A stretch of DNA of 32,000 nucleotides from Candidatus Saccharimonadota bacterium (GCF_008189285.1 NZ_CP043315.1:450001-482000); one strand, 5' to 3'. Shown: positions 1 to 28,990, counted from the first letter of the stretch. A program made the numbers and translations. Notes: generated by a model from the letters alone, not told the origin.

Positions 1-78
1 TTTCAATTGATAGCAAATAATGGAGAAAATGCTGGCCAAGAAATCTTCCATATGCATTTTCATCTCTTAATTGATTAA
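1..78 (+). CDS. HIT (histidine triad) family hydrolase, C-terminal fragment; the 5' end lies outside the window
   Basis: Frame 1 reads FQLIANNGENAGQEIFHMHFHLLID*. AGQ followed by H-x-H-x-H-x-x is the histidine-triad signature. TAA stop at 76-78. Confidence 0.6.
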   Translation, partial: FQLIANNGENAGQEIFHMHFHLLID

Positions 79-204
79 TATATTTCATATATCAACCGAT
101 GGTTATTGATTGATATATTTCATATATCAACCGATGGTTATTGATTGATATATTTCATATATCAACCGATGGATGTTATTGATTGATATCTTTCATATAT
201 CAAC
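71..204. repeat. Tandem repeat, 35-bp unit x ~4 (third unit has a 3-bp insertion); each unit contains the palindrome TTGATATAT-TTC-ATATATCAA
   Basis: Units start at 71, 106, 141 and 179. The unit ttgattgatatatttcatatatcaaccgatggtta was read directly. It lies between the convergent 3' ends of the HIT gene and tsaD. Confidence 0.9.
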
Positions 205-272
205 TTACCAAATCTAAATGTAAAATCAGAATAATGCTTCGCAAATTTATAACAATAAATCTCTTCTAATAA

Positions 273-11543: not shown

Positions 11544-12278
11544 TTATTTTTGCGCTTGTGAGCGTTGCTGTGTATGCATTATTCCCTGAACTTGCTGATG
11601 ATGCACTGGAGATTGTGGTTGCGTTGGAAATTGGGATTGACTAGGATTCTGTTGCATCATTTGTTGCTGAGGTTGCATCATTGGAGGCTGTTGATGCTGT
11701 ACATGATGCTGATGTTGATTTAGTTGTGGCGCTGGAGCTGCATATGGGTGTTGCGCTGGAGACTGTGGTTGCGTTGGAAATTGGGATTGATTAGAATTCT
11801 GTTGCATCATTTGTTGCTGAGGTTGCATCATTGGAGGCTGTTGATGCTGCACATGATACTGATGTTGATTTAGTTGTGGCGCTGGAGCTGCATATGGGTG
11901 TTGCGCTGGAGACTGTGGTTGCGGAATCATCTGATTTGGTTGTGCATGTTGATGATTCTGCGATTGTGGTTGCGTTGGAGCTTGGGATTGACTAGGATTC
12001 TGTTGCATCACTTGTTGCTGTTGAGGAGCTATATATTGCGGTTGTGGCATCATTGCAACTGCATACTGCTGATGAGCTTGCTGCTGTGTTGGAACTTGGG
12101 ATTGATTAGAATTCTGTTGCATCATTTGTTGCTGAGGTTGCATCATTGGAGGCTGTTGATGCTGTACATGATGCTGATGTTGATTTAGCTGTGGCGCTGG
12201 AGGCTGTGGTTGAGCTTGCAGTTGTTGATATTGATGAGGTTGAGCTTGTTGAACCCCTATTTGATACTGTTGCTGCAC
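11544..12278 (-). CDS. Gln/Pro/His-rich repeat ORF; probably the severed C-terminal tail of the upstream MBL-fold gene (same frame, single TAA between) rather than an independent gene
   Basis: 244 codons from GTG at 12278. No Shine-Dalgarno sequence upstream; the first in-frame ATG is 44 codons in. The upstream ORF already ends Q-rich (ATQQSQMQQQS*). Composition is much more GC-rich than the surroundings. Confidence 0.35.
   Translation of the reverse strand: MQQQYQIGVQQAQPHQYQQLQAQPQPPAPQLNQHQHHVQHQQPPMMQPQQQMMQQNSNQSQVPTQQQAHQQYAVAMMPQPQYIAPQQQQVMQQNPSQSQAPTQPQSQNHQHAQPNQMIPQPQSPAQHPYAAPAPQLNQHQYHVQHQQPPMMQPQQQMMQQNSNQSQFPTQPQSPAQHPYAAPAPQLNQHQHHVQHQQPPMMQPQQQMMQQNPSQSQFPTQPQSPVHHQQVQGIMHTQQRSQAQK
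11631..12230. repeat. Coding tandem/interspersed repeat, ~150-bp (50-aa) unit
   Basis: The anchor ttgggattga(c/t)tag(g/a)attctgttgcatca recurs at 11631, 11781, 11982 and 12096. Copies 1 and 2 are exactly 150 bp apart and nearly identical. They encode QHPYAAPAPQLNQHQHHVQHQQPPMMQPQQQMMQQN(S/P)(N/S)QSQFPTQPQSPA. Confidence 0.85.
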
Positions 12279-12284
12279 TTGAAC

Positions 12285-14144
12285 TTAAGATTGCTGTTGC
12301 ATTTGACTCTGTTGAGTTGCTTCGCTTCCTATATTCATTCCTCCTGCAAAAAGATCAACCAATCCTTCTTGAGCAGGTTGCGAATTCAATTCTTGACGCT
12401 GACTTTGCTCTGATTGTGATGCAGAATCATCTCTTTTGCTCACTTCTGAAGATACATCTTCAACTTTCCATGCAAATGATCTTTCGATATGATTTTTCAA
12501 ATTATTAGTTGAAATCCAATATGAGCATGATGAATTGCCTCCATCGCGCCCATAACTTGTCAATTGATTCGTAGAAAAATTAAACCTACCATTTGTTGAT
12601 CCATCGCTTGTTGATCCATCGCTTGTTGATCCATCGCTTGTTGATCCATCGCTTGTTGATCTATCATTTGTCATTTTATTCAATTCTGCTAATCTTTCTA
12701 TGATTTTTTTGCTATATTTATCTGTTGGATATTTATCTAAATTGTTTGTAACTTTGCCCACAACATATGCACTAGGAGCTTGGACTCTTTCTCCATGCCC
12801 ATTCGAAGAAATGATTAATGCAGGTTTAAACAAGCTAATCGCAGAACATAATGAGCTATCTGCTCCATGATGTGGCGCAATAATAACTATGTGATGATTG
12901 TCTTTATTGAATTGCATTTCACTATTCATAACTGAATTAAAATTATTGCCAACAATTTGATGCAAAATGCTAGATCTGATTTTACCTTGCAATTCATCTT
13001 CAAAATGCACGTTAAGGGTTCCAATTTCAGACATCATTGCTATTCCTTTACTTTTTGCTTCACCTATCTTGCTCTGTTTTCCCAAATCTCTCTGTTGAGG
13101 CTTATATTCTTTTATAATATCTTCTACATTTTTTACAAATTCTTCACATGATTCCTTGTGAAACTCTTTGTTTATCAGCATTTGCGCAATTGCGTTGTTA
13201 TCTGCATCTCCTGTGCATAGCACTGATACATATTGATCTTGATCAGGAGAGATTTTATGCGTAAATGAGATTAATGGACTAACAACATTTTGCTCATCTA
13301 TATCTGCATATCTTGTATTAGCTGAAACAATATTTACATATCCAGCTAATACGCTATTAACTTCATCAAAAAGACCTAAATAACCTGAATCGCATCCTCT
13401 AGTGAAATTTTTTAAACTGTTTGCATTTTTAGCCAAATCAAATAATTCAGTCAAATTACCACTAAAGAATTGTGGGCTTTCTCCTGCAGCATTTTGCCAG
13501 AAATATGGCTCTGCAACAGGAATATCTCCTGTATTTATCAAATCTTCAGCTCTTTCTATAGAAGTAGGATCTACGCTAGGAACACGAATGGATCCAGGTC
13601 TAGTTTGGCTCAAAGATTTTTTAAAAGACCCCTCAATTCCAGTTTCTTTGCTCCAATCACCAAATGCAAATACTGCAATTTTGATATCGCCTTTGAACTT
13701 TCTATCATCCGTAGCGCTATAATATTTACTCTTTGTTACCACTGCTGCACTTGTTGAATTTTTAGGATATAAAATATGATGCAAGATATTAAAATGATCC
13801 ATATCTGGGTGAGAAAGAAATATAGTCAAATAATCAAGCTCTTTCAGTTTCTCATGAACATTCTCACATAAATCTGGATATTCCTGATCATTAGCTTTAA
13901 AACCATTATGTGTTTTATTCAATCTTGCAGGATATTCACTGCTTCCGCAGTCATACATATATCCAACTTTTTGACTGAGAGAAAAAGCCTCTCCGCTATC
14001 ATCTTTTCTATCACGATCAATTAAATCATAAATCATGATATTGCAGTTGCCCTGCCCTACATCCATGATCCCGAAGTGACTTTCCTCGACTTCAAATACA
14101 CAAAATATTTTAGAAATACATAGTAAGAGTAATTTTTTATTCAT
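12285..14144 (-). CDS. Secreted or membrane-anchored MBL-fold hydrolase, ComEC/Rec2 C-terminal-domain-like (paralog 1)
   Basis: 619 aa with hydrophobic N-terminus MNKKLLLLCISKIFCVF. Ordered motifs: MDVGQGNC, YDCG, FLSHPDMDHFN (H-x-D-x-D-H), CTGDAD, IAPHHGADSS, SSNGHG, YWISTNN. AAGGA RBS lies before the ATG at 14144. Confidence 0.55.
   Translation of the reverse strand: MNKKLLLLCISKIFCVFEVEESHFGIMDVGQGNCNIMIYDLIDRDRKDDSGEAFSLSQKVGYMYDCGSSEYPARLNKTHNGFKANDQEYPDLCENVHEKLKELDYLTIFLSHPDMDHFNILHHILYPKNSTSAAVVTKSKYYSATDDRKFKGDIKIAVFAFGDWSKETGIEGSFKKSLSQTRPGSIRVPSVDPTSIERAEDLINTGDIPVAEPYFWQNAAGESPQFFSGNLTELFDLAKNANSLKNFTRGCDSGYLGLFDEVNSVLAGYVNIVSANTRYADIDEQNVVSPLISFTHKISPDQDQYVSVLCTGDADNNAIAQMLINKEFHKESCEEFVKNVEDIIKEYKPQQRDLGKQSKIGEAKSKGIAMMSEIGTLNVHFEDELQGKIRSSILHQIVGNNFNSVMNSEMQFNKDNHHIVIIAPHHGADSSLCSAISLFKPALIISSNGHGERVQAPSAYVVGKVTNNLDKYPTDKYSKKIIERLAELNKMTNDRSTSDGSTSDGSTSDGSTSDGSTNGRFNFSTNQLTSYGRDGGNSSCSYWISTNNLKNHIERSFAWKVEDVSSEVSKRDDSASQSEQSQRQELNSQPAQEGLVDLFAGGMNIGSEATQQSQMQQQS
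12586..12675. repeat. In-frame 15-bp coding tandem repeat (ccatcgcttgttgat x4 perfect, plus 2 degenerate flanking copies) encoding (STSDG)n
   Basis: Perfect copies at 12601, 12616, 12631 and 12646. The protein reads DRSTSDGSTSDGSTSDGSTSDGSTNG. Confidence 0.9.
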
Positions 14145-19197: not shown

Positions 19198-21465
19198 TTA
19201 ACTGACTTGAGGTGGTTGAGATATTATTTCAACACCTTCGGGCTGTTGACTTCCTGCTCGCGCACCATCATGAAGCAATGCACTAGCATCATTTGCAACT
19301 AGGACTGGCTGCATTGATGATGAAACTTGTGAATGAGTATCATTTGCAGCTAGAGCTGATTGCTGCGATAATAAAATATTTTGTATATGATCATTCGCTG
19401 CAACAGCCATAATCGCACTTGCGCTCACAACACAGCGCGTTGCAAGAAGATCTCCTTCTGTAGAGCATGAATATATCTGCCCTCTCAAAACATCAACATC
19501 CAGAAACTCTTGAGAGCCAGAAAATGCATTATACATTGCTAATGGGTTTCTTTCTTCTGAACATGCAATCCTAAGAGATCCATGATCATTTGTAGAGAAA
19601 AGCCATATAGAGCAAGGTCTTTTTTCTCCTTCATCTCCCTTTTTCTGATAAACTGTTATTTTTTTACCCCAAGTAATTTCATCTATATCCTTAACACTAT
19701 ACTGACTTTCAAAGGTAATTTGACTATTTCCTTTAAAAAACTCACCAACAAAATCTAGGCGTGGATTAAAAGCATTGGTCAAATTCTTAAAGAAATTAGC
19801 ATGTATATGAGGCTGCTGACCTCCATGACCATTTGACACATAAAGAATATTTGCACAAAATAATCTAGCTAAACTAATTGCAACTTGCCATTGTTCTTCA
19901 GATCCGTGATGAGGAGCAACTAATGCAACTTTGTCATTTTTGAATCTGCTTGCCACGGAATCAATAATATTTTTTCTGTAATCTGCTCTTGTTACAGGGT
20001 GAGATGCAATTCTTTTTCCCTCGTCTGCAAAAAATTTCATTCTTTCGAACATATCATTTCCACTTGCAGGGTCATTTAATTTTTTCATTTTCTCACATAA
20101 TTCCAACGCTTCTTTCTCATATTTCATTGTTATCAATCCTTGCAACATATCAGAAAAAGTTGAGTCCTCTGCATCTCCAGCGCAAATTACTGAATAAGCT
20201 TTAGATGATCCATCAACTGTTCCTGTAAATGATATTATTGGACTTTGCGCATTTGGATTTCCTGTAGTATTCATGGACCAAATGTAAATATGATCTTTTA
20301 ATTCTTTAATTATCGCATCAAATCCTGAAATAAAACTTTTTTCTGCAACAAATTTACTAAACATAGATTTAATATCTCCTGAGAAGAATTCCGGTAAATT
20401 AAATTCTTGTTTTTGAGCAAATGGCTCAATCAAAATATGAGATCTATATTTCAAGCATTTTAGTATTTGCCCTGCTACACCTGATACCTTTCCCCCTGAA
20501 TCACTCTTACGCCAATCTCCACATAAAATAGACATAATCTTACAATTTTTAAAATCTTCCGCACTATCATTATGCTTATCAGATCTGGATCTAGAGTTAC
20601 ACTCACATCCAAACAATTTGCTTATAAAACTAATATGATCTCCTTCTGGATGAGATAAAATTATAAATAAATAATCCAAATTTTGCAGTTTTACTCTCAA
20701 ATTATGTGCCATAGTAGAAATGGAATGAGATTGATTTGACTTGTCAGATTCTTGCTCTTCTTTCACTAAACTTTGATGATAAATATACCAAGATATTTTT
20801 TTAAGCAATTCTTTTTTGTCTTTGTCAGATAACTTATCAAATTTCTCTCTATTTACTTCTTTCAAAATAGGAAAATACTGATGAATTTTTTTGCATTTAA
20901 GCATTGCTTCAATCAATTTCTCGCCTACTTCTTTGATTTCTTTTTTAATGTTATTCTCACATTCATCTTTACCTAATCTCCATCTTGTATAATCTGCGCT
21001 AATTTCTTTATTACCCCATTCTTTCATTTTATTTTCCCACTCTTCTATCAAGCACAAGAGCTCTCCAATTTTTCCTCTACGTATAGTTTCAATTTTATTT
21101 TGCCGCCCTTTTATCTTAAATTCTACTTCAATTTCTTTATTAACAAACTCCAAAATCCCTTTGCTTGCTTCATCTTCACCCAATTTCGTTCCCAAATTCT
21201 TAGAATATTCAGTTTTTCCACAGTCATATAGGAATGCAACTGTTTTTCTCTCAATTACATCGCACATGCCAAGCAACACCTTGCTTCCATCTTCTCCTAT
21301 TGAATCAATTATTGGCTTTCTGAACTTTGCATCAATAACATACTTCATAATCTGGCAATTACCCTGCCCGACGTCCTCGATTGAGAAATCATATTCAACT
21401 ATCCCAGCGTATATATTCAGAAAGGTAGCTAAATATATAAATGGAATCCTAAAAAACTTATACAT
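19198..21465 (-). CDS. Secreted MBL-fold hydrolase, ComEC/Rec2 C-terminal-domain-like (paralog 2) with a Lys/Glu-rich insertion and an Ala/Ser/Gln-rich repeat tail
   Basis: 755 aa. Signal-peptide-like MYKFFRIPFIYLATFLNIYAG. Motifs: EDVGQGNC, YDCGK, LSHPEGDHISF, CAGDAEDS, VAPHHGSEE, SNGHGG, WLFSTNDHGSLRI. Confidence 0.55.
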   Translation of the reverse strand: MYKFFRIPFIYLATFLNIYAGIVEYDFSIEDVGQGNCQIMKYVIDAKFRKPIIDSIGEDGSKVLLGMCDVIERKTVAFLYDCGKTEYSKNLGTKLGEDEASKGILEFVNKEIEVEFKIKGRQNKIETIRRGKIGELLCLIEEWENKMKEWGNKEISADYTRWRLGKDECENNIKKEIKEVGEKLIEAMLKCKKIHQYFPILKEVNREKFDKLSDKDKKELLKKISWYIYHQSLVKEEQESDKSNQSHSISTMAHNLRVKLQNLDYLFIILSHPEGDHISFISKLFGCECNSRSRSDKHNDSAEDFKNCKIMSILCGDWRKSDSGGKVSGVAGQILKCLKYRSHILIEPFAQKQEFNLPEFFSGDIKSMFSKFVAEKSFISGFDAIIKELKDHIYIWSMNTTGNPNAQSPIISFTGTVDGSSKAYSVICAGDAEDSTFSDMLQGLITMKYEKEALELCEKMKKLNDPASGNDMFERMKFFADEGKRIASHPVTRADYRKNIIDSVASRFKNDKVALVAPHHGSEEQWQVAISLARLFCANILYVSNGHGGQQPHIHANFFKNLTNAFNPRLDFVGEFFKGNSQITFESQYSVKDIDEITWGKKITVYQKKGDEGEKRPCSIWLFSTNDHGSLRIACSEERNPLAMYNAFSGSQEFLDVDVLRGQIYSCSTEGDLLATRCVVSASAIMAVAANDHIQNILLSQQSALAANDTHSQVSSSMQPVLVANDASALLHDGARAGSQQPEGVEIISQPPQVS

Positions 21466-21520
21466 AACTTTATTTCTACACTAAAAATGATTAGCATAAT
21501 AGCTTCTTGTGCATTTTTGA
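21340..21520. repeat. Left arm of an inverted repeat shared with 23635-23815 (5' UTR plus the first 42 codons of paralogs 2 and 3)
   Basis: The reverse complement of 21340-21465 matches 23690-23815 with one mismatch by eye (atagttg vs ataattg). The ~55 nt upstream are also clearly homologous, e.g. ctaatcattttt(a/g)(g/a)tgtagaa. Confidence 0.85.
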
Positions 21521-22227
21521 TACTTATTTCTGTTTTTGCTATTTTTGCTATATATTATTTGTCGATCTCTATAGTTTTTCGCTTCACTATAAATACAATA
21601 ATTTAACTAATCTTCTAATAATCTTATAATAAAGAAATTCATAAATTTTTTAAAAGATTCATTGCTTCTAAGATTTTTGCGATTTAATTACCAAGCGCTT
21701 CCATTGGAATTTTTTATGATTTAATTGCTAAGCATTTCTATTAGAATTTTTTTAGCTTTTTCTTCTCCTATTCTTTTGTTATTTAATAGTTGAGCGCTTC
21801 TGTTAGAATTGAAAATAATAAGATATTTCCACGAAAAATTCAATTGGAATTATTAAAGAAACTTCTTATCAAATTTTGCTTTAAATTATTAATCACATCG
21901 TGCCATTTCTGCTAAAATAAAATTTACGCTATTTTTCCTAAAATAAAATATTTGCATGAAAATTATATGAAAAATATTAATTATAACAATGCCAATAATG
22001 CTTACCTACTTTTCTTTAATTAATACTATGTTTTCATTTTTTTAGCACTTTTCTTTTGAGTTCTATATTTTGCTTTTAAATTATATCATTTTTAGTTTTT
22101 TTTATATTTTTTGATATATTTCTTTCAATATGCCTTTTTAATATATTGTCATATTTTTTAGCGCTTTATTTTAGTAATTTTCACCATGTTTTTTAAATAA
22201 TACTTTGCTTGATTTGGATTTCTTTGA

Positions 22228-23484
22228 TTATTTTAGTGTTTTATAAACTGCATGACATTTTTGTACTTTTCTCATTTCCGCATCTTTCATTTTTTTGTAA
22301 AATGATTTTATCGAATGAGGATGAACAAACTTTCCATTTACTTTAATTTCATAATGAAGGTGAGGAGCTGTAGCCATCCCTGTTTTGCCAACATATCCAA
22401 TTATCTCGCCTTGTTTTACTTTTTGATTTCTTTTTACAATCAGTTTAGTCATATGACCATATCCAGTTGCAATTTTTTTATTATATGCATTATGAACAAC
22501 TTCCACGTAATTTCCATATCCAGCACAGGCTTGAGATTTTGATATAACTCCATCAGCTGGAGAATAAATTGGAGACCCCATTGGCATTCCATAATCTATT
22601 CCAGTGTGCATTTTTCTAACCTTCAAAATTGGGTGAATTCTCCATCCATAATTAGATGTAACCTTTCCTCCATTTATTGGCCTTTTCATTACAGTTATAT
22701 CATTGTAAGAATAATTCTCATTTAGATTGTATATTTTGTTTTCCATAGAAAGAATTGATTCAATTTTTCCATTTTTTCTATGCAACTCTATAAAAGCAAT
22801 TTTTGGTGCCTTGCCTGATTGCGCATGACAAGAATATCCAACATATATATTAGAAATACCAATGGTTGATTTATTAGCTTTTTGCAAAGTATTTAAAATT
22901 TCTTTTACCATAGGATTCGGCAAATTTTTTGATAGAGAAACTGATAGATTGCCATTAATTTTGCTTTGATATATTTCCCTGGAATCTTTTTGCATCCATT
23001 CTGTCATAATATCTCCATGATTTGATTTTAGATAAATTTTAAATCCTCGACCAGAAATATAACATTCGTCAAACTCATATGACCCATTTCTCTCAAAAAC
23101 TTTTGTTGAAATATTAGCATTATAAAGCCATGAAGATGGGATCACTTCATTAATTTTTTTAGTAATTTTAGAGACTTGATCAAGGGATAATCCTTCTTTA
23201 GACAAAGAAATCGACAGACCTTCATTTTCTATTTTATGTTTAATTAACACACTTCTTGAGGGAGCAATTACTTCATGAATAATCGATGTTTTCTGCGGAA
23301 CATGAAGAAATTTTAAAAATAATACACACCCACCTAAGAACATACAAATTCTGAATAAAGATATCAGCTCAAGAAAAACATAAGTAAAATTAAGTGCAAA
23401 AGGAATAAATCTAACAAAGCCAGCAACATATCTGCTCCAAAAACTAATTTCATCTACGAAAAATTTTACTACAATAGATACCAC
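22228..23484 (-). CDS. M23 family (LytM-type) peptidoglycan metalloendopeptidase with N-terminal membrane anchor
   Basis: C-terminal domain MHTGIDYGMPMGSPIYSPADG...GYGHM...GYVGKTGMATAPHLHYEIKVNG carries the HxxxD and HxH motifs. The N-terminus has hydrophobic segments. Start uncertain: GTG at 23484, with an internal ATG at codon 48. Confidence 0.85.
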   Translation of the reverse strand: MVSIVVKFFVDEISFWSRYVAGFVRFIPFALNFTYVFLELISLFRICMFLGGCVLFLKFLHVPQKTSIIHEVIAPSRSVLIKHKIENEGLSISLSKEGLSLDQVSKITKKINEVIPSSWLYNANISTKVFERNGSYEFDECYISGRGFKIYLKSNHGDIMTEWMQKDSREIYQSKINGNLSVSLSKNLPNPMVKEILNTLQKANKSTIGISNIYVGYSCHAQSGKAPKIAFIELHRKNGKIESILSMENKIYNLNENYSYNDITVMKRPINGGKVTSNYGWRIHPILKVRKMHTGIDYGMPMGSPIYSPADGVISKSQACAGYGNYVEVVHNAYNKKIATGYGHMTKLIVKRNQKVKQGEIIGYVGKTGMATAPHLHYEIKVNGKFVHPHSIKSFYKKMKDAEMRKVQKCHAVYKTLK

Positions 23485-23634
23485 GAAAGTATATTACCAT
23501 TTTTTAACTATTAATCTCTAGTGATTATATTGCCGAATGCAATTCATTTGAGCTAACTATTTTATTAAAATAATATATTTTATTCAAAATGCGAAAATAA
23601 TTTTCATAAATTTCTATAAACCTATAAAATTGCA

Positions 23635-23815
23635 TAAAAAATACATAAAAAGCTATACTACTAATCATTTTTGATGTAGAAGTAAAATTATGTATAAGTT
23701 TTTTAGGATTCCATTTATATATTTAGCTACCTTTCTGAATATATACGCTGGGATAATTGAATATGATTTCTCAATCGAGGACGTCGGGCAGGGTAATTGC
23801 CAGATTATGAAGTAT
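23635..23815. repeat. Right arm of the inverted repeat shared with 21340-21520
   Basis: See the left arm. It includes a -10-like TATACT at 23654-23659, where the paralog 2 copy has TATTAT at the equivalent position. Confidence 0.85.
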
Positions 23816-25522
23816 GTTGTGGAATTAAGCACAGTGTCAGAATTTGGGGATAGTCATGGGAAAAAGCAATTTAAAAAAGAAGATGGAAAAGTTGTAGAAT
23901 CAAGTGAGCAGAAGCAATTTGAAAGGAAAATTGAGAGAAAAACAGTTGCATTCCTATATGATTGTGGAAAAGTAGAATTTTCTAAGAATTTGGGAACGAA
24001 GTTGGATGAAGAAACATATAAACTTGCAGAAGAATTGAATAGCAAATTTAAAGAATTGAATAAACAAAAATTCGAATTAAAATCTAATGAAGATAAGATG
24101 ACCAAAGCAGATAATAAGGGGAATTCATCAAAGAACGATGGAACTCCAACTAAAGATTATGCTAGATGGAGTAAAAATATAAAGCAAAATGAAGAAAAAA
24201 TTAAAGAAATAAATAAAGAAATTAAAAAGCTTTCAAAAAATCTTTTTGCATGCAAAAAAATTCATCAGTATTTTCCCATTTTGAAAGAAGTAAATAGAGA
24301 GAAATTTGATAAGTTATCTGACAAAGACAAAAAAGAATTGCTTGGAAAAGTATGCAAATACATCAATGACCAAAATTTAGTGAAAGAAGAGCAAGAATCT
24401 GACAAGACAAATCAACCTTATTCAATTAATACTATGGCGCATAATTTGAGAGCAAAGTTGCAAAACTTGGACTATTTATTTGTAATTTTATCTCATCCAG
24501 ATAAGGATCATATAAACTTTATAAGCAAATTATTTGGATGTGAATGCGCTGCAAACGCAAACGCAGATGATATTGACAAGCACAGCGATTCAAAATATCT
24601 GAAAGATTGCAAGATTATGTCTATTCTTTGCGGATATTGGCGTAAAGGTGATGAAAATTCAGATGAAGGCAAAGAAGATAATTCTAATGTTATGAAGCAG
24701 GCATTAGGATGTCTTAAAAAAAGATCTCATATTTTGATTGAGCCATTTATTACAAAGCAAAAAAACTCTCATTTACCGAAATTTTTCTCTGGAGATATTG
24801 AATCTATGTTTAATAAATTTGTTGCAAAAAAAAGTTTGATTTCAGGATTTGATGCGATAATTAAAGAATTAAAAGATCATATTTACATTTGGTCCATGAA
24901 TACTCCAGGAAATCCAAATGCGCAAAGTCCAATAATATCATTTACAGGAAAAGTGGATGGAGAATCTGATGAGCAAGCTTATTCAGTAATTTGCGCTGGA
25001 GATGCAGAAGATTCAACTTATTCAAATATGGTAACAGAATTAGCAATAAGAGAGCAGAAAAATATAAGATCTGTTCTTGATCTAATAGAAAGCAAATTTG
25101 GAGATAGCAGAATTGCATTAGTTGCCCCTCATCACGGATCTGAAGAGCAGTGGCAGATTACTTTTAATCTAGCAAAATTGTTTCAAGCAAACATTCTTTA
25201 CATATCAAATGGACACGGAGGAATGTATCCCCATATAAATCCAAATTTCTTCAAGAATTTAACTGCTGCGTTTAAAGTATGGCCTGAATCCAGCGAAAAA
25301 TTCTTCTTAGGAGATTGTCAAATTTCTTTTGAAAGCCAATATAATGCTAGAACCATAAATGCAATTAACGAAGGAAAAGAAGTTGATGGGGAAAATGAAG
25401 GAAAGAAAATAACTGTTTATAAGCAAAAAGGTAAAAAGGGAGATAAAAAAGATTGCCCACCATGGCTTTTCTCTACAAATGATCATGGATCTCTTAGAAT
25501 TGTACGCCATTCGCGTTCATAA
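23690..25522 (+). CDS. Secreted MBL-fold hydrolase, ComEC/Rec2 C-terminal-domain-like (paralog 3); has a Lys/Glu-rich insertion but no C-terminal tail
   Basis: 610 aa. The first 42 residues are identical to paralog 2 except one I/V. Motifs: EDVGQGNC, YDCGK, LSHPDKDHINF, CAGDAEDS, VAPHHGSEE, SNGHGG, WLFSTNDHGSLRI. It then stops 6 codons later. Confidence 0.55.
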   Translation: MYKFFRIPFIYLATFLNIYAGIIEYDFSIEDVGQGNCQIMKYVVELSTVSEFGDSHGKKQFKKEDGKVVESSEQKQFERKIERKTVAFLYDCGKVEFSKNLGTKLDEETYKLAEELNSKFKELNKQKFELKSNEDKMTKADNKGNSSKNDGTPTKDYARWSKNIKQNEEKIKEINKEIKKLSKNLFACKKIHQYFPILKEVNREKFDKLSDKDKKELLGKVCKYINDQNLVKEEQESDKTNQPYSINTMAHNLRAKLQNLDYLFVILSHPDKDHINFISKLFGCECAANANADDIDKHSDSKYLKDCKIMSILCGYWRKGDENSDEGKEDNSNVMKQALGCLKKRSHILIEPFITKQKNSHLPKFFSGDIESMFNKFVAKKSLISGFDAIIKELKDHIYIWSMNTPGNPNAQSPIISFTGKVDGESDEQAYSVICAGDAEDSTYSNMVTELAIREQKNIRSVLDLIESKFGDSRIALVAPHHGSEEQWQITFNLAKLFQANILYISNGHGGMYPHINPNFFKNLTAAFKVWPESSEKFFLGDCQISFESQYNARTINAINEGKEVDGENEGKKITVYKQKGKKGDKKDCPPWLFSTNDHGSLRIVRHSRS

Positions 25523-26013: not shown

Positions 26014-26502
26014 TTATTTAATTCCAATGTAAATATTAAAACCTTCTTTTTCTATAGCTTCAGGTGTTTTGTCATAAATTTCGAAATCTGCAACAAAACT
26101 TCTCTCTCCACCAAGCGAATTAGAATCCATGCTCCAAATTTCCTTCCAAGCATTTATACATATCTCTGGCATTTTTCCTGGAGCAACTTCAAATTTGACA
26201 TATTTTTGTTGAGGAATTGTATGTGTTTTTAGAGTAGAATCAACATTATCAAAAGAAATTACTTCTTCTCCAACAAAGTAAGTGTATTCTCCATTATGAT
26301 CACCTTCATAATCAGCATACACACAATACATTGCTCCTGGATTTTTTCTATTGGAAATCTTTTCGTTAATATTATTACTAAAATACTTATTTATAGTTGG
26401 CATTATTTTTCCTGTATCTGGATTCATTTCTGCTGCATTGTTTGTCTTTACAGAAATTCCAACAAGCTTTATTTCATTTAATTGGTTTTTTGATTTTTTC
26501 AT
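26014..26502 (-). CDS. GyrI-like / AraC-effector-binding-domain (Cass2-like) small-molecule-binding protein
   Basis: 162 aa. The layout IKLVGISVKT...YCVYADYE...YTYFVGEEV...KYVKFEV...W.EIW...ADFEIYD is typical of stand-alone GyrI-like domains. GGGAGA RBS. It lies downstream of fabI on the same strand. Confidence 0.55.
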   Translation of the reverse strand: MKKSKNQLNEIKLVGISVKTNNAAEMNPDTGKIMPTINKYFSNNINEKISNRKNPGAMYCVYADYEGDHNGEYTYFVGEEVISFDNVDSTLKTHTIPQQKYVKFEVAPGKMPEICINAWKEIWSMDSNSLGGERSFVADFEIYDKTPEAIEKEGFNIYIGIK

Positions 26503-26575: not shown

Positions 26576-27385
26576 TTATTGTTTAGGAGCTTTATTTTCT
26601 GGACTTCTAACTCCAATTGTATGGTAACCACTATCAACATAAATAATTTCACCAGTTACACCTTTGGATAATTCACTAACCAAGTATGTTGCAGTTCCAC
26701 CAACTTCTTCTATAGTTGTATTTGACTTAATCGGTGAATGAGTTCTATGCCATGAAAGCAATTCAGGAAAGTCTCTTATTGCAGAAGAAGCTAATGTTCT
26801 AATTGGCCCAGCAGAAATACAATTAACTCTTATATTATCAACACCAAAATCATTTGCTAAATACATAACACTAGCTTCCAATGCTGCTTTTGCTACTCCC
26901 ATAACATTATAATGAGGGATGAATTTTTGCGCACCATAATAAGATAATGTAATCATTGATCCGCCATTTTTCATCAAAGGAGCGCATTCTTTAGCTGCTT
27001 CTGTAAATGAATAGCAAGAAATATCCAAAGCTTGCGCAAATGCATCTTTTGTAATATCGGAATATTTGTCTTTCATGTATGTTTTGTCAGCAAATGCAAT
27101 AGAATGTATCAAAAAATCTATATTATCCCATTTTTGACCAACTTTATTGAAAAATGAAGCAATTTCTCCTTCTTTTTCAGCATCGCAGGAGTGCGCAAAA
27201 GAAGCTCCAGTGCTTTCAGCAATCTTCATTGCTCTGCTCTCTAAAGCTGGATGATAACTTATACCAATCTCAGCTCCATGATTAATAAAAGCCTCCGCAA
27301 TCCCGGAAGCTATTGATCTATCATTAGCAATTCCCATGATAACGCCACGTTTTCCTTTTAGTAAATTACTTTTACATTCATCCAT
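26576..27385 (-). CDS. fabI: Enoyl-[acyl-carrier-protein] reductase (NADH), FabI
   Basis: 269 aa. LKGKRGVIMGIANDRSIASGIA N-terminus, SIAFA, YNVMGVAKAALEASVMYLA (Y-x6-K), and NCISAGPIRTLA. Confidence 0.92.
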   Translation of the reverse strand: MDECKSNLLKGKRGVIMGIANDRSIASGIAEAFINHGAEIGISYHPALESRAMKIAESTGASFAHSCDAEKEGEIASFFNKVGQKWDNIDFLIHSIAFADKTYMKDKYSDITKDAFAQALDISCYSFTEAAKECAPLMKNGGSMITLSYYGAQKFIPHYNVMGVAKAALEASVMYLANDFGVDNIRVNCISAGPIRTLASSAIRDFPELLSWHRTHSPIKSNTTIEEVGGTATYLVSELSKGVTGEIIYVDSGYHTIGVRSPENKAPKQ

Positions 27386-27544
27386 TATATTAAACCTCTA
27401 TGGAATTCTATCATCATGAAATATCTAATTCAAGAAAAGCTATAATTATTTATATAAATTCTATATTTATATGAATCATCAACGAAAGCAAAGCATGTCA
27501 AATTTATAACAATATTTATTAATTTTAAGCATTTTTACAATAAT

Positions 27545-28990
27545 TTAAGCAATCCAAACAATTTCATAATCAGACAATTTTTGCTTATTTTGCACAAAAT
27601 TCAATGCATCCAATAATGTTCCTTCTTTGTCAATTAAACGCAATTTTGCAGCATCTTTTCCTGCATAAACCTGACCTAGGCTAATTTGTCTAGAATATTC
27701 AAAAGTAAAACTCCTTCTATCCGCAACTAACTGTCTAAATCTATTCATAGAATCTCTTATGTCTTTAATTAAGTCTTTCTTCAATCTATCATCCAAAGGA
27801 GAATTTCTATTATTTATATCAGGGATATTATGTGAATTAATTGACTCTATATTTACTCCAGGCTCTTTAATATGAGCATGTTTCATATAAACACCTATTG
27901 ATCCAACTACAGAAACAGAAGGGGCAAAAATCTTATCAGCGCTCAATGCAATTAAATATGCTCCAGATGCACATGTATCTGATATTGAAGAGACTAATAA
28001 TTTCTTCGCACTTAACGATTTTAGAATATTATATAACTCATAAGACAAACCTACAGCTCCTCCTCCACTATCTATTCGCAAAATCACAGCCTTTATATCT
28101 TTATTATTTGCAATTTTTTCAATTTTATTCATAAATTCTACACTGCCTAAATAAGATTCATTGCTTATCGTGCCAAAAATATTAATTATTGCAATTTTAT
28201 TTCTAGATGATTTATTAGAATGCATTGATACATACTTATTAATGCTAATTTGTTTTTTGTATTTATTTCTCCATTCAGAAAAACTATTCCCTTTTTTAAA
28301 TGACATTAAATCACATATATAATCATTTTTCCTCAATCCCATAATAGTATCAATATCATCAACTTTCTTAATCAATTTAATTTTATCTATAACGATATCT
28401 GATAAAACTTTTATAAGCTGCTCCAATCCTTCTCTATATTCATCACTCATTTCAGTTCGTGATTCTGGATCAGGATTTTTAAATTCTCCTGTCGCGATAG
28501 TAGTTATATCGATTCCCTTTCTTCTTAAGGCATCACGAGCAAATGGCATATAAACATGTATTCCAGATATATAACTAGATGCACTTTCGCATAAAGTGGA
28601 ATTTACATGAGACGCCAAATACGCTGTTTTAGAATCTAATCCATCAATATATAAATCCACAAATTTATTATTCTTCTTGAATAAATCAAACACATCTATT
28701 AATTCTTCAATAGAAGTTAGAGAATCTCCATTTATGCAAATTCCATTACGATAATTAATGGCAACCCCTCTAATTTTAGAATCATTAGCTGCATTCTTCA
28801 AAGCTAAAATCAACTGATCAAATTGGTAATAATGAACATAAGAATCATTAAACCCATACGTCAAAACTAAATTATTACTCAATTTGCATTTCAATAATTC
28901 ATATGTTGATTTAAAAGAAAGCAACCCCAATAAAACAAACAAAAAATTTCTAATAAATCTCATTAGTTGCATTATATATTGAGTGATCAA
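27545..28990 (-). CDS. sppA: Signal peptide peptidase SppA (peptidase family S49)
   Basis: C-terminal S49 domain: AVILRIDSGGGAVGLSYELY...SDTCASGAYLIALSADKIFAPSVSVVGSIGV. N-terminal membrane anchor. The start is either TTG at 28990 or, more likely, ATG at 28972. Confidence 0.85.
   Translation of the reverse strand: MITQYIMQLMRFIRNFLFVLLGLLSFKSTYELLKCKLSNNLVLTYGFNDSYVHYYQFDQLILALKNAANDSKIRGVAINYRNGICINGDSLTSIEELIDVFDLFKKNNKFVDLYIDGLDSKTAYLASHVNSTLCESASSYISGIHVYMPFARDALRRKGIDITTIATGEFKNPDPESRTEMSDEYREGLEQLIKVLSDIVIDKIKLIKKVDDIDTIMGLRKNDYICDLMSFKKGNSFSEWRNKYKKQISINKYVSMHSNKSSRNKIAIINIFGTISNESYLGSVEFMNKIEKIANNKDIKAVILRIDSGGGAVGLSYELYNILKSLSAKKLLVSSISDTCASGAYLIALSADKIFAPSVSVVGSIGVYMKHAHIKEPGVNIESINSHNIPDINNRNSPLDDRLKKDLIKDIRDSMNRFRQLVADRRSFTFEYSRQISLGQVYAGKDAAKLRLIDKEGTLLDALNFVQNKQKLSDYEIVWIA

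What the first reader, a model, noticed from the sequence alone, without database searches (positions are those of the whole stretch)
19198..25522. Divergent inverted paralog pair with nucleotide-identical blocks flanking the M23 peptidase gene: mosaic or gene-conversion cassette architecture
Paralogs 2 (minus strand) and 3 (plus strand) face away from each other across 2.2 kb, which holds a non-coding spacer and the M23 peptidase gene. Their similarity is block-wise, not uniform.
- 21340-21465 vs 23690-23815 (signal peptide through GQGNCQIMKYV): 1 mismatch in 126 nt by eye. Homology continues ~55 nt into the 5' UTR.
- 20803-20895 vs 24251-24343 (CKKIHQYFPILKEVNREKFDKLSDKDKKELL): 1 mismatch in 93 nt.
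- About 20221-20330 vs about 24842-24950 (GFDAIIKELKDHIYIWSMNT.GNPNAQSPIISFTG): 1 mismatch.
- Between these blocks the sequences are strongly diverged and differ in length.

Identity at synonymous sites points to recent gene conversion or recombination rather than purifying selection alone. Because the copies are inverted, crossover at an internal block would invert the intervening DNA. That would create reciprocal chimeras, swapping the variable N-terminal insertions onto different C-terminal halves. This is a potential recombinase-independent variation mechanism.
Basis: seen in the sequence. Interest (0 to 1): 0.75.

Follow-up and report, generated by a model that had tools for sequence, protein, structure and literature searches.

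The report
Gene-converted inverted effector-like paralog pair
Two oppositely oriented copies of a secreted ComEC-like metallo-hydrolase gene in a protist endosymbiont carry three near-identical patches left by recent copy-and-paste recombination; this is a clear but ordinary case of gene conversion, and nothing shows a flip-switch.

Summary
The window comes from Candidatus Cytomitobacter indipagum, a 628-kb endosymbiont of a diplonemid protist. Genes g2 (19198-21465, -) and g3 (23690-25522, +) face outward around an M23 peptidase gene. They share three blocks of 129, 94 and 112 nt with one mismatch each. The rest of the genes is about 50-88% identical. Synonymous divergence is 0.016 in the blocks and 0.80 elsewhere (Fisher p = 6e-15).

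The sister species C. primus has the same layout: paralog(-), M23(+), paralog(+), ybeY(-), grpE-dnaK-dnaJ, paralog(+), rpoD(-). The inverted pair is therefore most simply ancestral. Yet g2 and g3 group together (100% bootstrap, 76% core similarity) and resemble their positional orthologs only 34-37%. That is the signature of concerted evolution.

The best explanation is repeated short-tract gene conversion by homologous recombination. RecA/RecFOR and MutSL are reported as retained in these endosymbionts.

The inversion-shuffling idea has no support. M23 has the same orientation in both species, no recombinase gene lies in the window, and no chimeric proteins appear in public data. C. primus paralogs in direct orientation are mosaic too.

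The proteins are signal-peptide-bearing, stand-alone ComEC-type MBL hydrolases from an expanded family. I rate this a new member of a known kind, of modest interest.

The parts
19198..21465 (-). g2 (FZC35_02015), 755 aa. It has an N-terminal hydrophobic signal-like segment, a ComEC-type MBL domain with a helical insertion, and a 125-aa A/S/Q-rich tail that g3 lacks. It is the positional counterpart of C. primus Cp1015.
21466..22227 (.). 762-nt AT-rich spacer between M23 and g2. It holds a 37-nt repeat in 2.1 copies (21674-21752). It shows no family remnant and no Rfam match. Only its last ~56 nt next to g2 resemble the g3 upstream region, at 80%.
22228..23484 (-). M23 family peptidoglycan endopeptidase gene lying between the inverted paralogs. 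It is on the same strand as g2, as its ortholog is in C. primus (56% aa identity).
23485..23689 (.). 205-nt divergent intergenic region between M23 and g3. It presumably holds both promoters (inferred; the consensus scan is not informative).
23690..25522 (+). g3 (FZC35_02025), 610 aa. It is a paralog of g2 (56% aa identity overall, 76% similarity over the conserved core). It is the positional counterpart of C. primus Cp671.
23690..23818 (+). Conversion block 1 (partner 21337-21465): 129 nt, 1 mismatch. It encodes the signal-like segment through DVGQGNCQIMKYV. dS = 0.
21337..21465 (-). Conversion block 1, g2 arm.
24250..24343 (+). Conversion block 2 (partner 20803-20896): 94 nt, 1 synonymous mismatch. 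It encodes CKKIHQYFPILKEVNREKFDKLSDKDKKELL, part of an insertion that other family members do not conserve.
20803..20896 (-). Conversion block 2, g2 arm.
24839..24950 (+). Conversion block 3 (partner 20220-20331): 112 nt, 1 mismatch. It encodes GFDAIIKELKDHIYIWSMNTxGNPNAQSPIISFTG. Flanks of 93-97% identity suggest an older, wider tract.
   Evidence: (I2)
20220..20331 (-). Conversion block 3, g2 arm.
23929..24012 (+). Patch of intermediate identity (partner 21173-21256): 84 nt, 92%. It encodes IERKTVAFLYDCGK... and is probably an older conversion tract or a constrained strand.
   Evidence: (I6)
12285..14144 (-). g1, the third family member in the window (27-28% aa identity to g2 and g3). It shares no nucleotide-identical blocks with them. 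It is the positional counterpart of C. primus Cp562.

Best explanation
g2 and g3 are most likely an old inverted pair of paralogous genes flanking the M23 peptidase gene, already present in the common ancestor of C. indipagum and C. primus. Each encodes an exported, stand-alone ComEC-type metallo-beta-lactamase-fold hydrolase, probably a nuclease or phosphodiesterase-like effector; that function is inferred.

In the C. indipagum lineage the two copies have evolved in concert through intrachromosomal, non-reciprocal gene conversion by the homologous-recombination machinery. RecA/RecFOR would do the exchange, and MutSL would cut tracts short at mismatches.

An older homogenisation covering most of the gene left the pair about 76% similar in the core, with dS near 0.8. 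At least three very recent short tracts (94-129 nt, dS about 0.016) were laid over that background, along with a few patches of intermediate age.

The mosaic is a by-product of recombinational repair between nearby homologous sequences. It needs no inversion of the intervening DNA.

Shown here: the blocks, the dS contrast, the conserved synteny and the grouping by species. Inferred: the enzymatic pathway, the non-reciprocity and the protein function.
For: 1. dS is 0.016 in the blocks and 0.80 in the rest (Fisher p = 6.5e-15). Runs of identical synonymous codons exceed permutations.
2. The blocks do not follow protein constraint. Block 2 lies in a lineage-specific insertion, whereas the invariant catalytic motifs lie in regions with synonymous changes.
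3. C. primus has the same order: Cp671(-), M23(+), Cp1015(+), ybeY(-), grpE, dnaK, dnaJ, Cp562(+), rpoD(-), dnaG(-). Yet g2 and g3 cluster at 100% bootstrap with 0.76 core similarity, against 0.34-0.37 to Cp1015 and Cp671.
4. No third close paralog exists in the protein databases that could have donated the variable parts.
5. C. primus paralogs also show recombination. Informative sites switch from L6626+L10001 (28:10) to L6626+Cp1015 (92:26), with max-chi2 permutation p < 0.002. A segmental duplicate carries a ybeY fragment.
6. George et al. (bioRxiv 10.1101/719211) report RecA-dependent RecFOR and MutSL retained and RecBCD absent in these endosymbionts.
7. Assembly collapse is unlikely. The genome is a hybrid assembly of HiSeq reads at 3423x plus Nanopore reads, and the blocks sit inside otherwise divergent sequence.
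Against: - Only one genome of C. indipagum exists, so neither the direction nor the non-reciprocity of the exchange can be seen.
- Two sequences cannot tell conversion without crossover from conversion linked to crossover.
- The ancestral-pair argument rests on two species. Independent gain of an inverted copy upstream of M23 in each lineage is unlikely but not excluded, and synteny breaks immediately beyond the 3' end of g3/Cp671.
- The presence of RecA/RecFOR is taken from the paper; I did not verify it in sequence.
Confidence: 0.72

Rival explanations
1. Inversion-based module shuffling. Crossovers within the identical blocks flip the M23-containing segment and exchange the 5' modules (the variable helical insertion) between the two 3' halves. 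This would generate chimeric secreted proteins as a population-level variation mechanism, and the near-identity of the blocks would be maintained by heteroduplex repair at the crossover sites.
For: - The geometry allows it. The homologous arms are inverted: 297 nt at 88%, 209 nt at 92% and 190 nt at 93%. They contain exact runs up to 66 nt, and the blocks bracket variable segments.
- There is a known analogue. The pneumococcal spnIII hsdS locus inverts at 333-, 85- and 15-bp repeats, partly without CreX and without RecA (PMC6620402).
- Family members look modular, with variable C-terminal tails.
Against: - M23 is co-oriented with the ybeY-side paralog in both species.
- The window contains no invertase or integrase gene.
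- Both genes are full-length with their own start and identical 5' ends, so there is no expressed-versus-silent asymmetry.
- No chimeric proteins or alternative contigs were found in public data.
- Mosaicism also occurs among C. primus paralogs in direct orientation.
- The inverted C. primus pair Cp671/Cp1015 shares no blocks of 85% identity or more.
Confidence: 0.12
2. Recent inverted duplication followed by very fast, localised divergence. On this view the identical blocks are untouched relics of a young duplicate, and the variable regions diverged by indels, slippage and positive selection.
For: - The first variable region is K/E-rich, full of indels and has dN/dS of about 0.67.
- The family evolves very fast. 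Positional orthologs are only about 27-37% similar.
- Segmental duplication does occur in the family.
Against: - Synonymous divergence of 0.7-0.9 extends across the well-aligned, indel-free catalytic core (24344-24838 and 24951-25522). Local protein-level selection cannot produce that.
- The inverted pair around M23 is shared with C. primus, which makes a young duplicate unlikely.
Confidence: 0.08
3. Nucleotide-level constraint or artefact. The blocks would be conserved because they carry embedded DNA or RNA elements (promoter, sRNA, translation-initiation region), or because assembly or polishing cross-talk between paralogs homogenised them.
For: - Block 1 covers the translation start and the signal sequence, where mRNA-level constraint is plausible.
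- Reads were 2x125 bp, similar in length to the blocks.
Against: - There are three separate blocks, two of them deep inside the ORFs.
- There is no Rfam match, and promoter and terminator scans are at background level.
- The upstream non-coding part is less conserved (80%) than the coding block.
- Coverage was 3423x with Nanopore bridging. Cross-mapping cannot create identity within sequence that is about 75% identical.
Confidence: 0.05

Closest known systems
Concerted evolution of the inverted tufA/tufB duplicates in Salmonella by RecA-dependent gene conversion (Abdulkarim & Hughes 1996, cited from my own knowledge; Paulsson et al. 2017, PMC5485169)
   Same: Both have two full-length, separately expressed paralogs in one chromosome, with homology ending at the gene borders. 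Both exchange sequence in non-reciprocal continuous tracts. In tuf, mismatch repair shortens those tracts.
   Different: The tuf copies are about 99% identical over their whole length, are essential, and lie far apart. g2 and g3 are about 75% identical with only short near-identical patches. They are fast-evolving accessory genes 2.2 kb apart in a 628-kb endosymbiont genome without RecBCD.
Phase-variable type I R-M hsdS inversion loci (S. pneumoniae spnIII/ivr; PMC6620402, PMC4948785)
   Same: Both have inverted gene copies whose internal identical repeats (333, 85 and 15 bp in spnIII) bracket variable domains, so crossover would create chimeras.
   Different: spnIII has one expressed hsdS and truncated silent copies, an adjacent tyrosine recombinase (CreX/PsrA), and both orientations demonstrated in populations. 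Here both genes are complete, no recombinase gene lies nearby, and only one orientation is seen, the same in two species.
Segmental gene conversion in multigene families of obligate intracellular alphaproteobacteria (Anaplasma msp2/p44, reported to use the RecF pathway; cited from my own knowledge)
   Same: Both involve an obligate intracellular alphaproteobacterium with the RecFOR route, and short conserved segments flanking variable segments in a paralogous family of exported proteins.
   Different: msp2/p44 use one expression site plus many silent pseudogene cassettes, and the result is antigenic variation of a surface porin. Here there are two or three intact genes and no cassettes, and any function in variation is unproven.
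Concerted evolution of duplicated regions in the reduced endosymbiont Tremblaya princeps (PMC4479817)
   Same: Both show homogenisation of duplicated segments in a highly reduced endosymbiont genome (abstract only).
   Different: The Tremblaya case concerns rRNA-operon-containing duplications kept nearly identical, not patchy conversion of fast-evolving genes for secreted proteins.
ComEC/Rec2 C-terminal beta-lactamase-like nuclease domain (Baker et al. 2016, PMC5031224; PDB 9vcb, 9vcf)
   Same: The motifs are shared: DVGQG, HxDxDH with the ComEC-specific His-to-Asp change, GD, HHGS, and G..G...HP. The profile matches the ComEC structures.
   Different: There is no competence membrane channel and no OB-fold domain. 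Instead there is an N-terminal signal-like peptide, a large helical insertion and variable C-terminal tails. The family is multi-copy, with at least 7 genes in C. primus and 3 in this window.

Membership tests
Interlocus gene conversion / concerted evolution of paralogs | Paralogs within a genome are more similar to each other than to their positional orthologs in a related species | tested here: met
   The layout is shared with C. primus. g2 and g3 cluster at 100% bootstrap, with core similarity 0.76 against 0.34-0.37 to Cp1015 and Cp671.
Interlocus gene conversion / concerted evolution of paralogs | Synonymous divergence is strongly heterogeneous along the alignment, with discrete near-identical tracts | tested here: met
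   dS is 0.016 against 0.80, Fisher p = 6.5e-15. Run-length permutation p is 0.001 or lower.
Interlocus gene conversion / concerted evolution of paralogs | Homologous-recombination machinery is present in the organism | not tested
   Taken from George et al. (10.1101/719211): RecA-dependent RecFOR and MutSL present, RecBCD absent. The genes lie outside this window and I did not verify them.
Interlocus gene conversion / concerted evolution of paralogs | Transfer is non-reciprocal (donor unchanged) | not testable with these tools
   This needs population or time-series data, or more than two informative sequences. No other strain was found.
Invertible-DNA domain-shuffling systems (hsdS spnIII type, shufflons) | Inverted repeats inside coding sequence bracket variable modules | tested here: met
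   Inverted blocks 1-3 bracket variable segments 23819-24249 and 24344-24838.
Invertible-DNA domain-shuffling systems (hsdS spnIII type, shufflons) | One expressed gene plus promoter-less or truncated silent copies | tested here: not met
   Both g2 and g3 are complete ORFs with an identical start region and their own upstream DNA.
Invertible-DNA domain-shuffling systems (hsdS spnIII type, shufflons) | A dedicated site-specific recombinase is encoded at or near the locus | tested here: not met
   Pfam annotation of the ORFs tested returned no recombinase domain. The genes identified are tsaD, amidase, atpAGDC, dnaG, rpoD, dnaJK, grpE, ybeY, Cass2-like, fabI, sppA, comF, tpiA and dapF; some are assigned from their translations or orthology rather than Pfam, and one 155-aa ORF has no match.
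Invertible-DNA domain-shuffling systems (hsdS spnIII type, shufflons) | Both orientations or chimeric forms are observed | tested here: inconclusive
   M23 has the same orientation in two species. No chimeric proteins appear in the databases. Read-level data were not available.
ComEC/Rec2-type MBL (beta-lactamase-like) domain | MBL metal-binding motifs with the ComEC-specific HxDxDH variant, GD and HHGS | tested here: met
   Invariant residues include H269, D273, H274, D438, H481 and H482. The motif is SHPDKDH in g3 and SHPEGDH in g2. The ComEC His-to-Asp change is described in PMC5031224.
ComEC/Rec2-type MBL (beta-lactamase-like) domain | Significant sequence or structure match to the ComEC MBL domain | tested here: met
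   The family profile hits ComEC chains 9vcb and 9vcf at E = 1.4e-6, but only over the C-terminal ~85 residues of the domain. The AF2 model (pLDDT 67) has as best fold hit the MBL enzyme Pce, 2bib, at E = 1.2e-3. No Pfam or NCBIfam hit reached the curated cut-off for g1-g3.
ComEC/Rec2 competence protein (full-length) | Polytopic competence channel domain and N-terminal OB fold | tested here: not met
   g1-g3 have no Competence or DUF4131 match. The only N-terminal hydrophobic feature is one short signal-like segment. They are therefore not ComEC orthologs.
Cassette-based antigenic variation (msp2/p44, pilE/pilS, vlsE) | A single expression site plus an array of silent partial cassettes | tested here: not met
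   tblastn with the family found no fragments or pseudogene cassettes elsewhere in the window or in the spacers.

The most novel reading that the evidence does not exclude
The identical blocks could be working crossover sites of a homology-driven inversion switch. It would act without a dedicated invertase, as in the CreX- and RecA-independent spnIII inversions. It would flip the M23 segment and re-assort the variable helical insertion with different catalytic and C-terminal halves of two co-expressed secreted ComEC-like hydrolases. A 628-kb endosymbiont would thereby gain population-level effector diversity. The evidence does not exclude low-frequency flipping.
Probability: 0.1. Interest if true: 0.65.

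Novelty: new member of a known kind. Interest (0 to 1): 0.33.

Why it matters
The locus shows at nucleotide resolution that homologous recombination is still acting inside a highly reduced protist-endosymbiont genome. Such genomes are often assumed to be static. The recombination acts on an expanded, fast-evolving family of exported ComEC-like hydrolases, which are plausible host-interaction factors.

It also carries a practical warning. Within-species similarity of these paralogs reflects conversion, not recent duplication, so gene trees of this family will mislead orthology calls.

The mechanism itself, interlocus gene conversion, is textbook biology. Most of the extra value lies in the uncharacterised protein family. 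It has at least 113 cluster representatives at E < 1e-30, at least 7 copies in C. primus, and a conserved association with an M23 peptidase gene.

Tried and rejected
- **Pseudogene cassettes or family remnants.** I searched the spacers and the rest of the window by tblastn and found none.
- **Rfam, promoter and terminator scans.** The only Rfam match is a distant tRNA, and consensus sites are at background level.
- **A third close paralog as donor of the variable segments.** Beyond g2 and g3, no protein exceeds 36% identity.
- **Other strains or chimeric junctions in metagenomes.** An exact block-3 pattern and a protein-based scan both returned nothing. C. indipagum itself is not in the genome-contig collection.
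- **The C. primus L6626/L10001 shared 5' block.** I first read it as a parallel case of recent conversion and then withdrew that. Its dS is 0.46 against 0.71 with dN of 0.025, so it mostly reflects purifying selection. The statistically supported C. primus evidence is instead the three-way discordance and the segmental duplicate with a ybeY fragment.
- **Residual positional orthology.** I looked for it in the C-terminal tails (g2 vs Cp1015, g3 vs Cp671) and found no homology.
- **GC-biased conversion.** GC3 is 0.29 in the blocks and 0.22 in the rest. The difference is suggestive, but I did not test it and I do not rely on it.
- **Fold search.** It gave only a weak MBL hit because the model is of moderate quality.

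Full report
**What and where.** The window is from Candidatus Cytomitobacter indipagum, a Holosporales endosymbiont of a diplonemid protist with a 628-kb chromosome. The two ORFs match NCBI proteins FZC35_02015 and FZC35_02025 exactly. I call them g2 (19198-21465, minus strand, 755 aa) and g3 (23690-25522, plus strand, 610 aa). They are transcribed away from each other. Between them lie a 762-nt spacer, an M23 peptidoglycan endopeptidase gene (22228-23484, minus strand; Pfam PF01551, E = 2e-28) and a 205-nt intergenic region. A third, distant paralog, g1, lies at 12285-14144 (minus strand; 27-28% identity).

**Checking the observation.**
- 23690-23818 vs 21337-21465, 129 nt
- 24250-24343 vs 20803-20896, 94 nt
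- 24839-24950 vs 20220-20331, 112 nt

Each has one mismatch. Overall aligned identity is 74.5%. None of 5000 shuffles reached the four longest exact runs (66, 66, 66 and 62 nt).

The key test is at synonymous sites. Among 361 codons that encode the same amino acid in both genes and are degenerate, 75 differ. The runs without a difference are 45, 41 and 23 codons (permutation p = 0.001, <0.0001 and 0.001). By Nei-Gojobori, dS is 0.016 in the blocks and 0.80 in the rest. The three non-block regions give 0.88, 0.71 and 0.83. Fisher's exact p is 6.5e-15.

Two details in the finding need correcting:
- The roughly 56 nt upstream of the ATG are only 80% identical, so the near-identity starts at the start codon.
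- The segment between blocks 2 and 3 is only moderately diverged.

**Why this is exchange and not constraint.** The blocks do not follow protein conservation. Block 2 encodes part of a helical insertion that only g2 and g3 share. The family-invariant catalytic motifs (LSHPDxDH, TGDA, PHHGS, SNGHG..PH) lie in regions that do carry synonymous substitutions. No RNA family, promoter or terminator signal explains the blocks. The genome was closed from 3423x HiSeq reads plus Nanopore reads, so assembly collapse is implausible for short patches inside sequence that is about 75% identical.

**The decisive comparison.** I retrieved the homologous region of the sister species C. primus (loci L001-L003). 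Its order is:

Cp671(-), M23(+), Cp1015(+), ybeY(-), grpE, dnaK, dnaJ, Cp562(+), rpoD(-), dnaG(-).

The reverse complement of the window reads:

g3(-), M23(+), g2(+), ybeY(-), grpE, dnaK, dnaJ, g1(+), Q-rich ORF, rpoD(-), dnaG(-).

The inverted pair flanking M23 is therefore shared by both species and is most simply ancestral. Yet in a neighbour-joining tree on 339 conserved columns, g2 and g3 group with 100% bootstrap. Their core similarity is 0.76, against 0.34-0.37 to their positional counterparts Cp1015 and Cp671. Conserved position together with species-wise clustering is the classic signature of concerted evolution. It implies an older homogenisation of most of the gene, now at dS near 0.8, overlaid by very recent short tracts at dS near 0. 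No third close paralog exists that could have donated the variable parts.

**What the comparison says about inversion.** In both species M23 is co-oriented with the ybeY-proximal paralog. This gives no sign that the intervening segment flips, although with two species it is weak evidence.
- Pfam returned no recombinase domain for any ORF tested in the window.
- No chimeric g2/g3 proteins, other strains or alternative junctions were found.
- The inverted pair of C. primus (Cp671/Cp1015) shares no blocks of 85% identity or more.
- Mosaicism in this family does not need inverted geometry. All three C. primus paralogs L6626, L10001 and Cp1015 are in direct orientation, yet they show significant phylogenetic discordance along the gene. 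Informative sites run 28:10 for L6626+L10001 in the 5' coding part and 92:26 for L6626+Cp1015 in positions 1461-2030 (max-chi2 permutation p < 0.002).
- L6626 also drags along a 140-nt fragment of ybeY, which marks it as a segmental duplicate of the Cp1015-ybeY junction.

My first reading of the L6626/L10001 5' block as recent conversion was wrong. Its dS is 0.46, so it mostly reflects purifying selection.

**Mechanism.** George et al. report that these endosymbionts keep the RecA-dependent RecFOR pathway and MutSL but lack RecBCD. The Salmonella tufA/tufB system shows that two paralogs in one chromosome exchange continuous non-reciprocal tracts bounded by the homology, and that mismatch repair shortens those tracts.

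I infer that g2 and g3 undergo the same process. Gap or break repair uses the nearby paralog as template. Tracts abort quickly in the diverged flanks, which leaves patches of about 100-130 nt. Regions that were converted recently are the best substrates for the next event, so the patches tend to persist. A crossover outcome would invert the segment at 21.3-23.8 kb and make reciprocal chimeras. That is physically possible, but nothing here shows it. It would also depend on RecA rather than being 'recombinase-independent'. It uses 333-, 85- and 15-bp inverted repeats and is partly independent of CreX and of RecA. That locus has silent partial copies and a resident recombinase, both of which are absent here.

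**What the genes encode.** All family members start with a short hydrophobic, signal-like segment. They carry DVGQGN, YDCGS, LSHP(D/E)xDH, TGDA, PHHGS and SNGHG..PH. The HxDxDH variant is the ComEC-specific substitution described by Baker et al.. The family profile matches the beta-lactamase-like domain of solved ComEC/Rec2 structures (9vcb, E = 1.4e-6). An AlphaFold model (pLDDT 67) places long helices in the variable insertion (residues about 107-237), and its best fold hit is the MBL enzyme Pce. No Pfam or NCBIfam model reaches its cut-off for g1-g3.

The proteins lack the ComEC channel and OB domains. They are stand-alone, probably exported metallo-hydrolases, and a nuclease or phosphodiesterase activity is inferred only. 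The family is sizeable, with 113 representatives at E < 1e-30. It occurs in Caedibacter-like and other alphaproteobacterial MAGs. It is expanded to at least 7 genes in the 622-kb C. primus genome, with variable C-terminal tails that include a trypsin-like protease domain on Cp1015.

**Verdict.** The inversion-switch half is unsupported and somewhat disfavoured. This is a clean new example of a known process, interlocus gene conversion, in an unusual setting. The main open lead is the uncharacterised protein family rather than the recombination mechanism.

Noticed in passing
window 11544-12287 (-), junction with g1 at 12285-12287: g1 is in frame with the following 244-aa Q/P-rich ORF, which contains 150-nt repeats. 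A single stop codon separates them ('...QMQQQS*VQVQQQYQIG...'). This could be a recent nonsense mutation, a sequencing error or readthrough. Either way, g1 once had, or still has, a long Q/P-rich tail.
   Followed up: partly
window 12593-12665 (-): A perfect 15-nt tandem repeat in about 5 copies inside g1 encodes (TSDGS)n. It is a slippage-prone tract in a secreted-protein gene.
   Followed up: no
L001 8874-9013 vs L003 13205-13345 (C. primus): A 140-nt fragment of the ybeY 3' end (84% identity) sits just downstream of paralog L6626. This shows that L6626 arose by segmental duplication of the Cp1015-ybeY junction with loss of the protease tail of Cp1015.
   Followed up: yes
L003 9971-13018 (+), residues ~696-858 of Cp1015: The C. 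primus counterpart of g2 carries a C-terminal trypsin-like serine protease domain (PF00089, E = 2e-13). Cp671 and L17382 carry long hydrophobic tails instead. The family is thus an MBL head with interchangeable C-terminal modules.
   Followed up: partly
window 26576-28990 vs L001 12428-14795: fabI and sppA are adjacent in both species, but their order along the coding strand is swapped: sppA then fabI here, fabI then sppA in C. primus. In C. primus they are flanked by family paralogs, and here they lie next to g3. This suggests repeated rearrangement around these paralogs.
   Followed up: partly
window 20619-20640 (g2 motif) vs 24494-24515 (g3 motif): The second metal-ligand position of the HxDxDH motif is Glu in g2 (SHPEGDH) and Asp in g3 and g1 (SHPDKDH, SHPDMDH). 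This may matter for activity.
   Followed up: no
window 70-215 and 1334-1444: Two AT-rich tandem-repeat arrays (35-38-nt units x4 and 30-nt units x3) lie in intergenic DNA flanking tsaD and next to a tRNA gene (1512-1583). Their function is unknown.
   Followed up: no
window 26014-26502 (-): A Cass2/GyrI-like small-molecule-binding protein gene (PF14526, E = 2.5e-23) sits between g3 and fabI. No counterpart was found at the corresponding place in C. primus.
   Followed up: no
window 23690-25522, blocks vs rest: Third-position GC is higher in the conversion blocks (0.29-0.30) than in the rest of the genes (0.21-0.23). This could be a hint of GC-biased gene conversion, but I did not test it statistically.
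   Followed up: no
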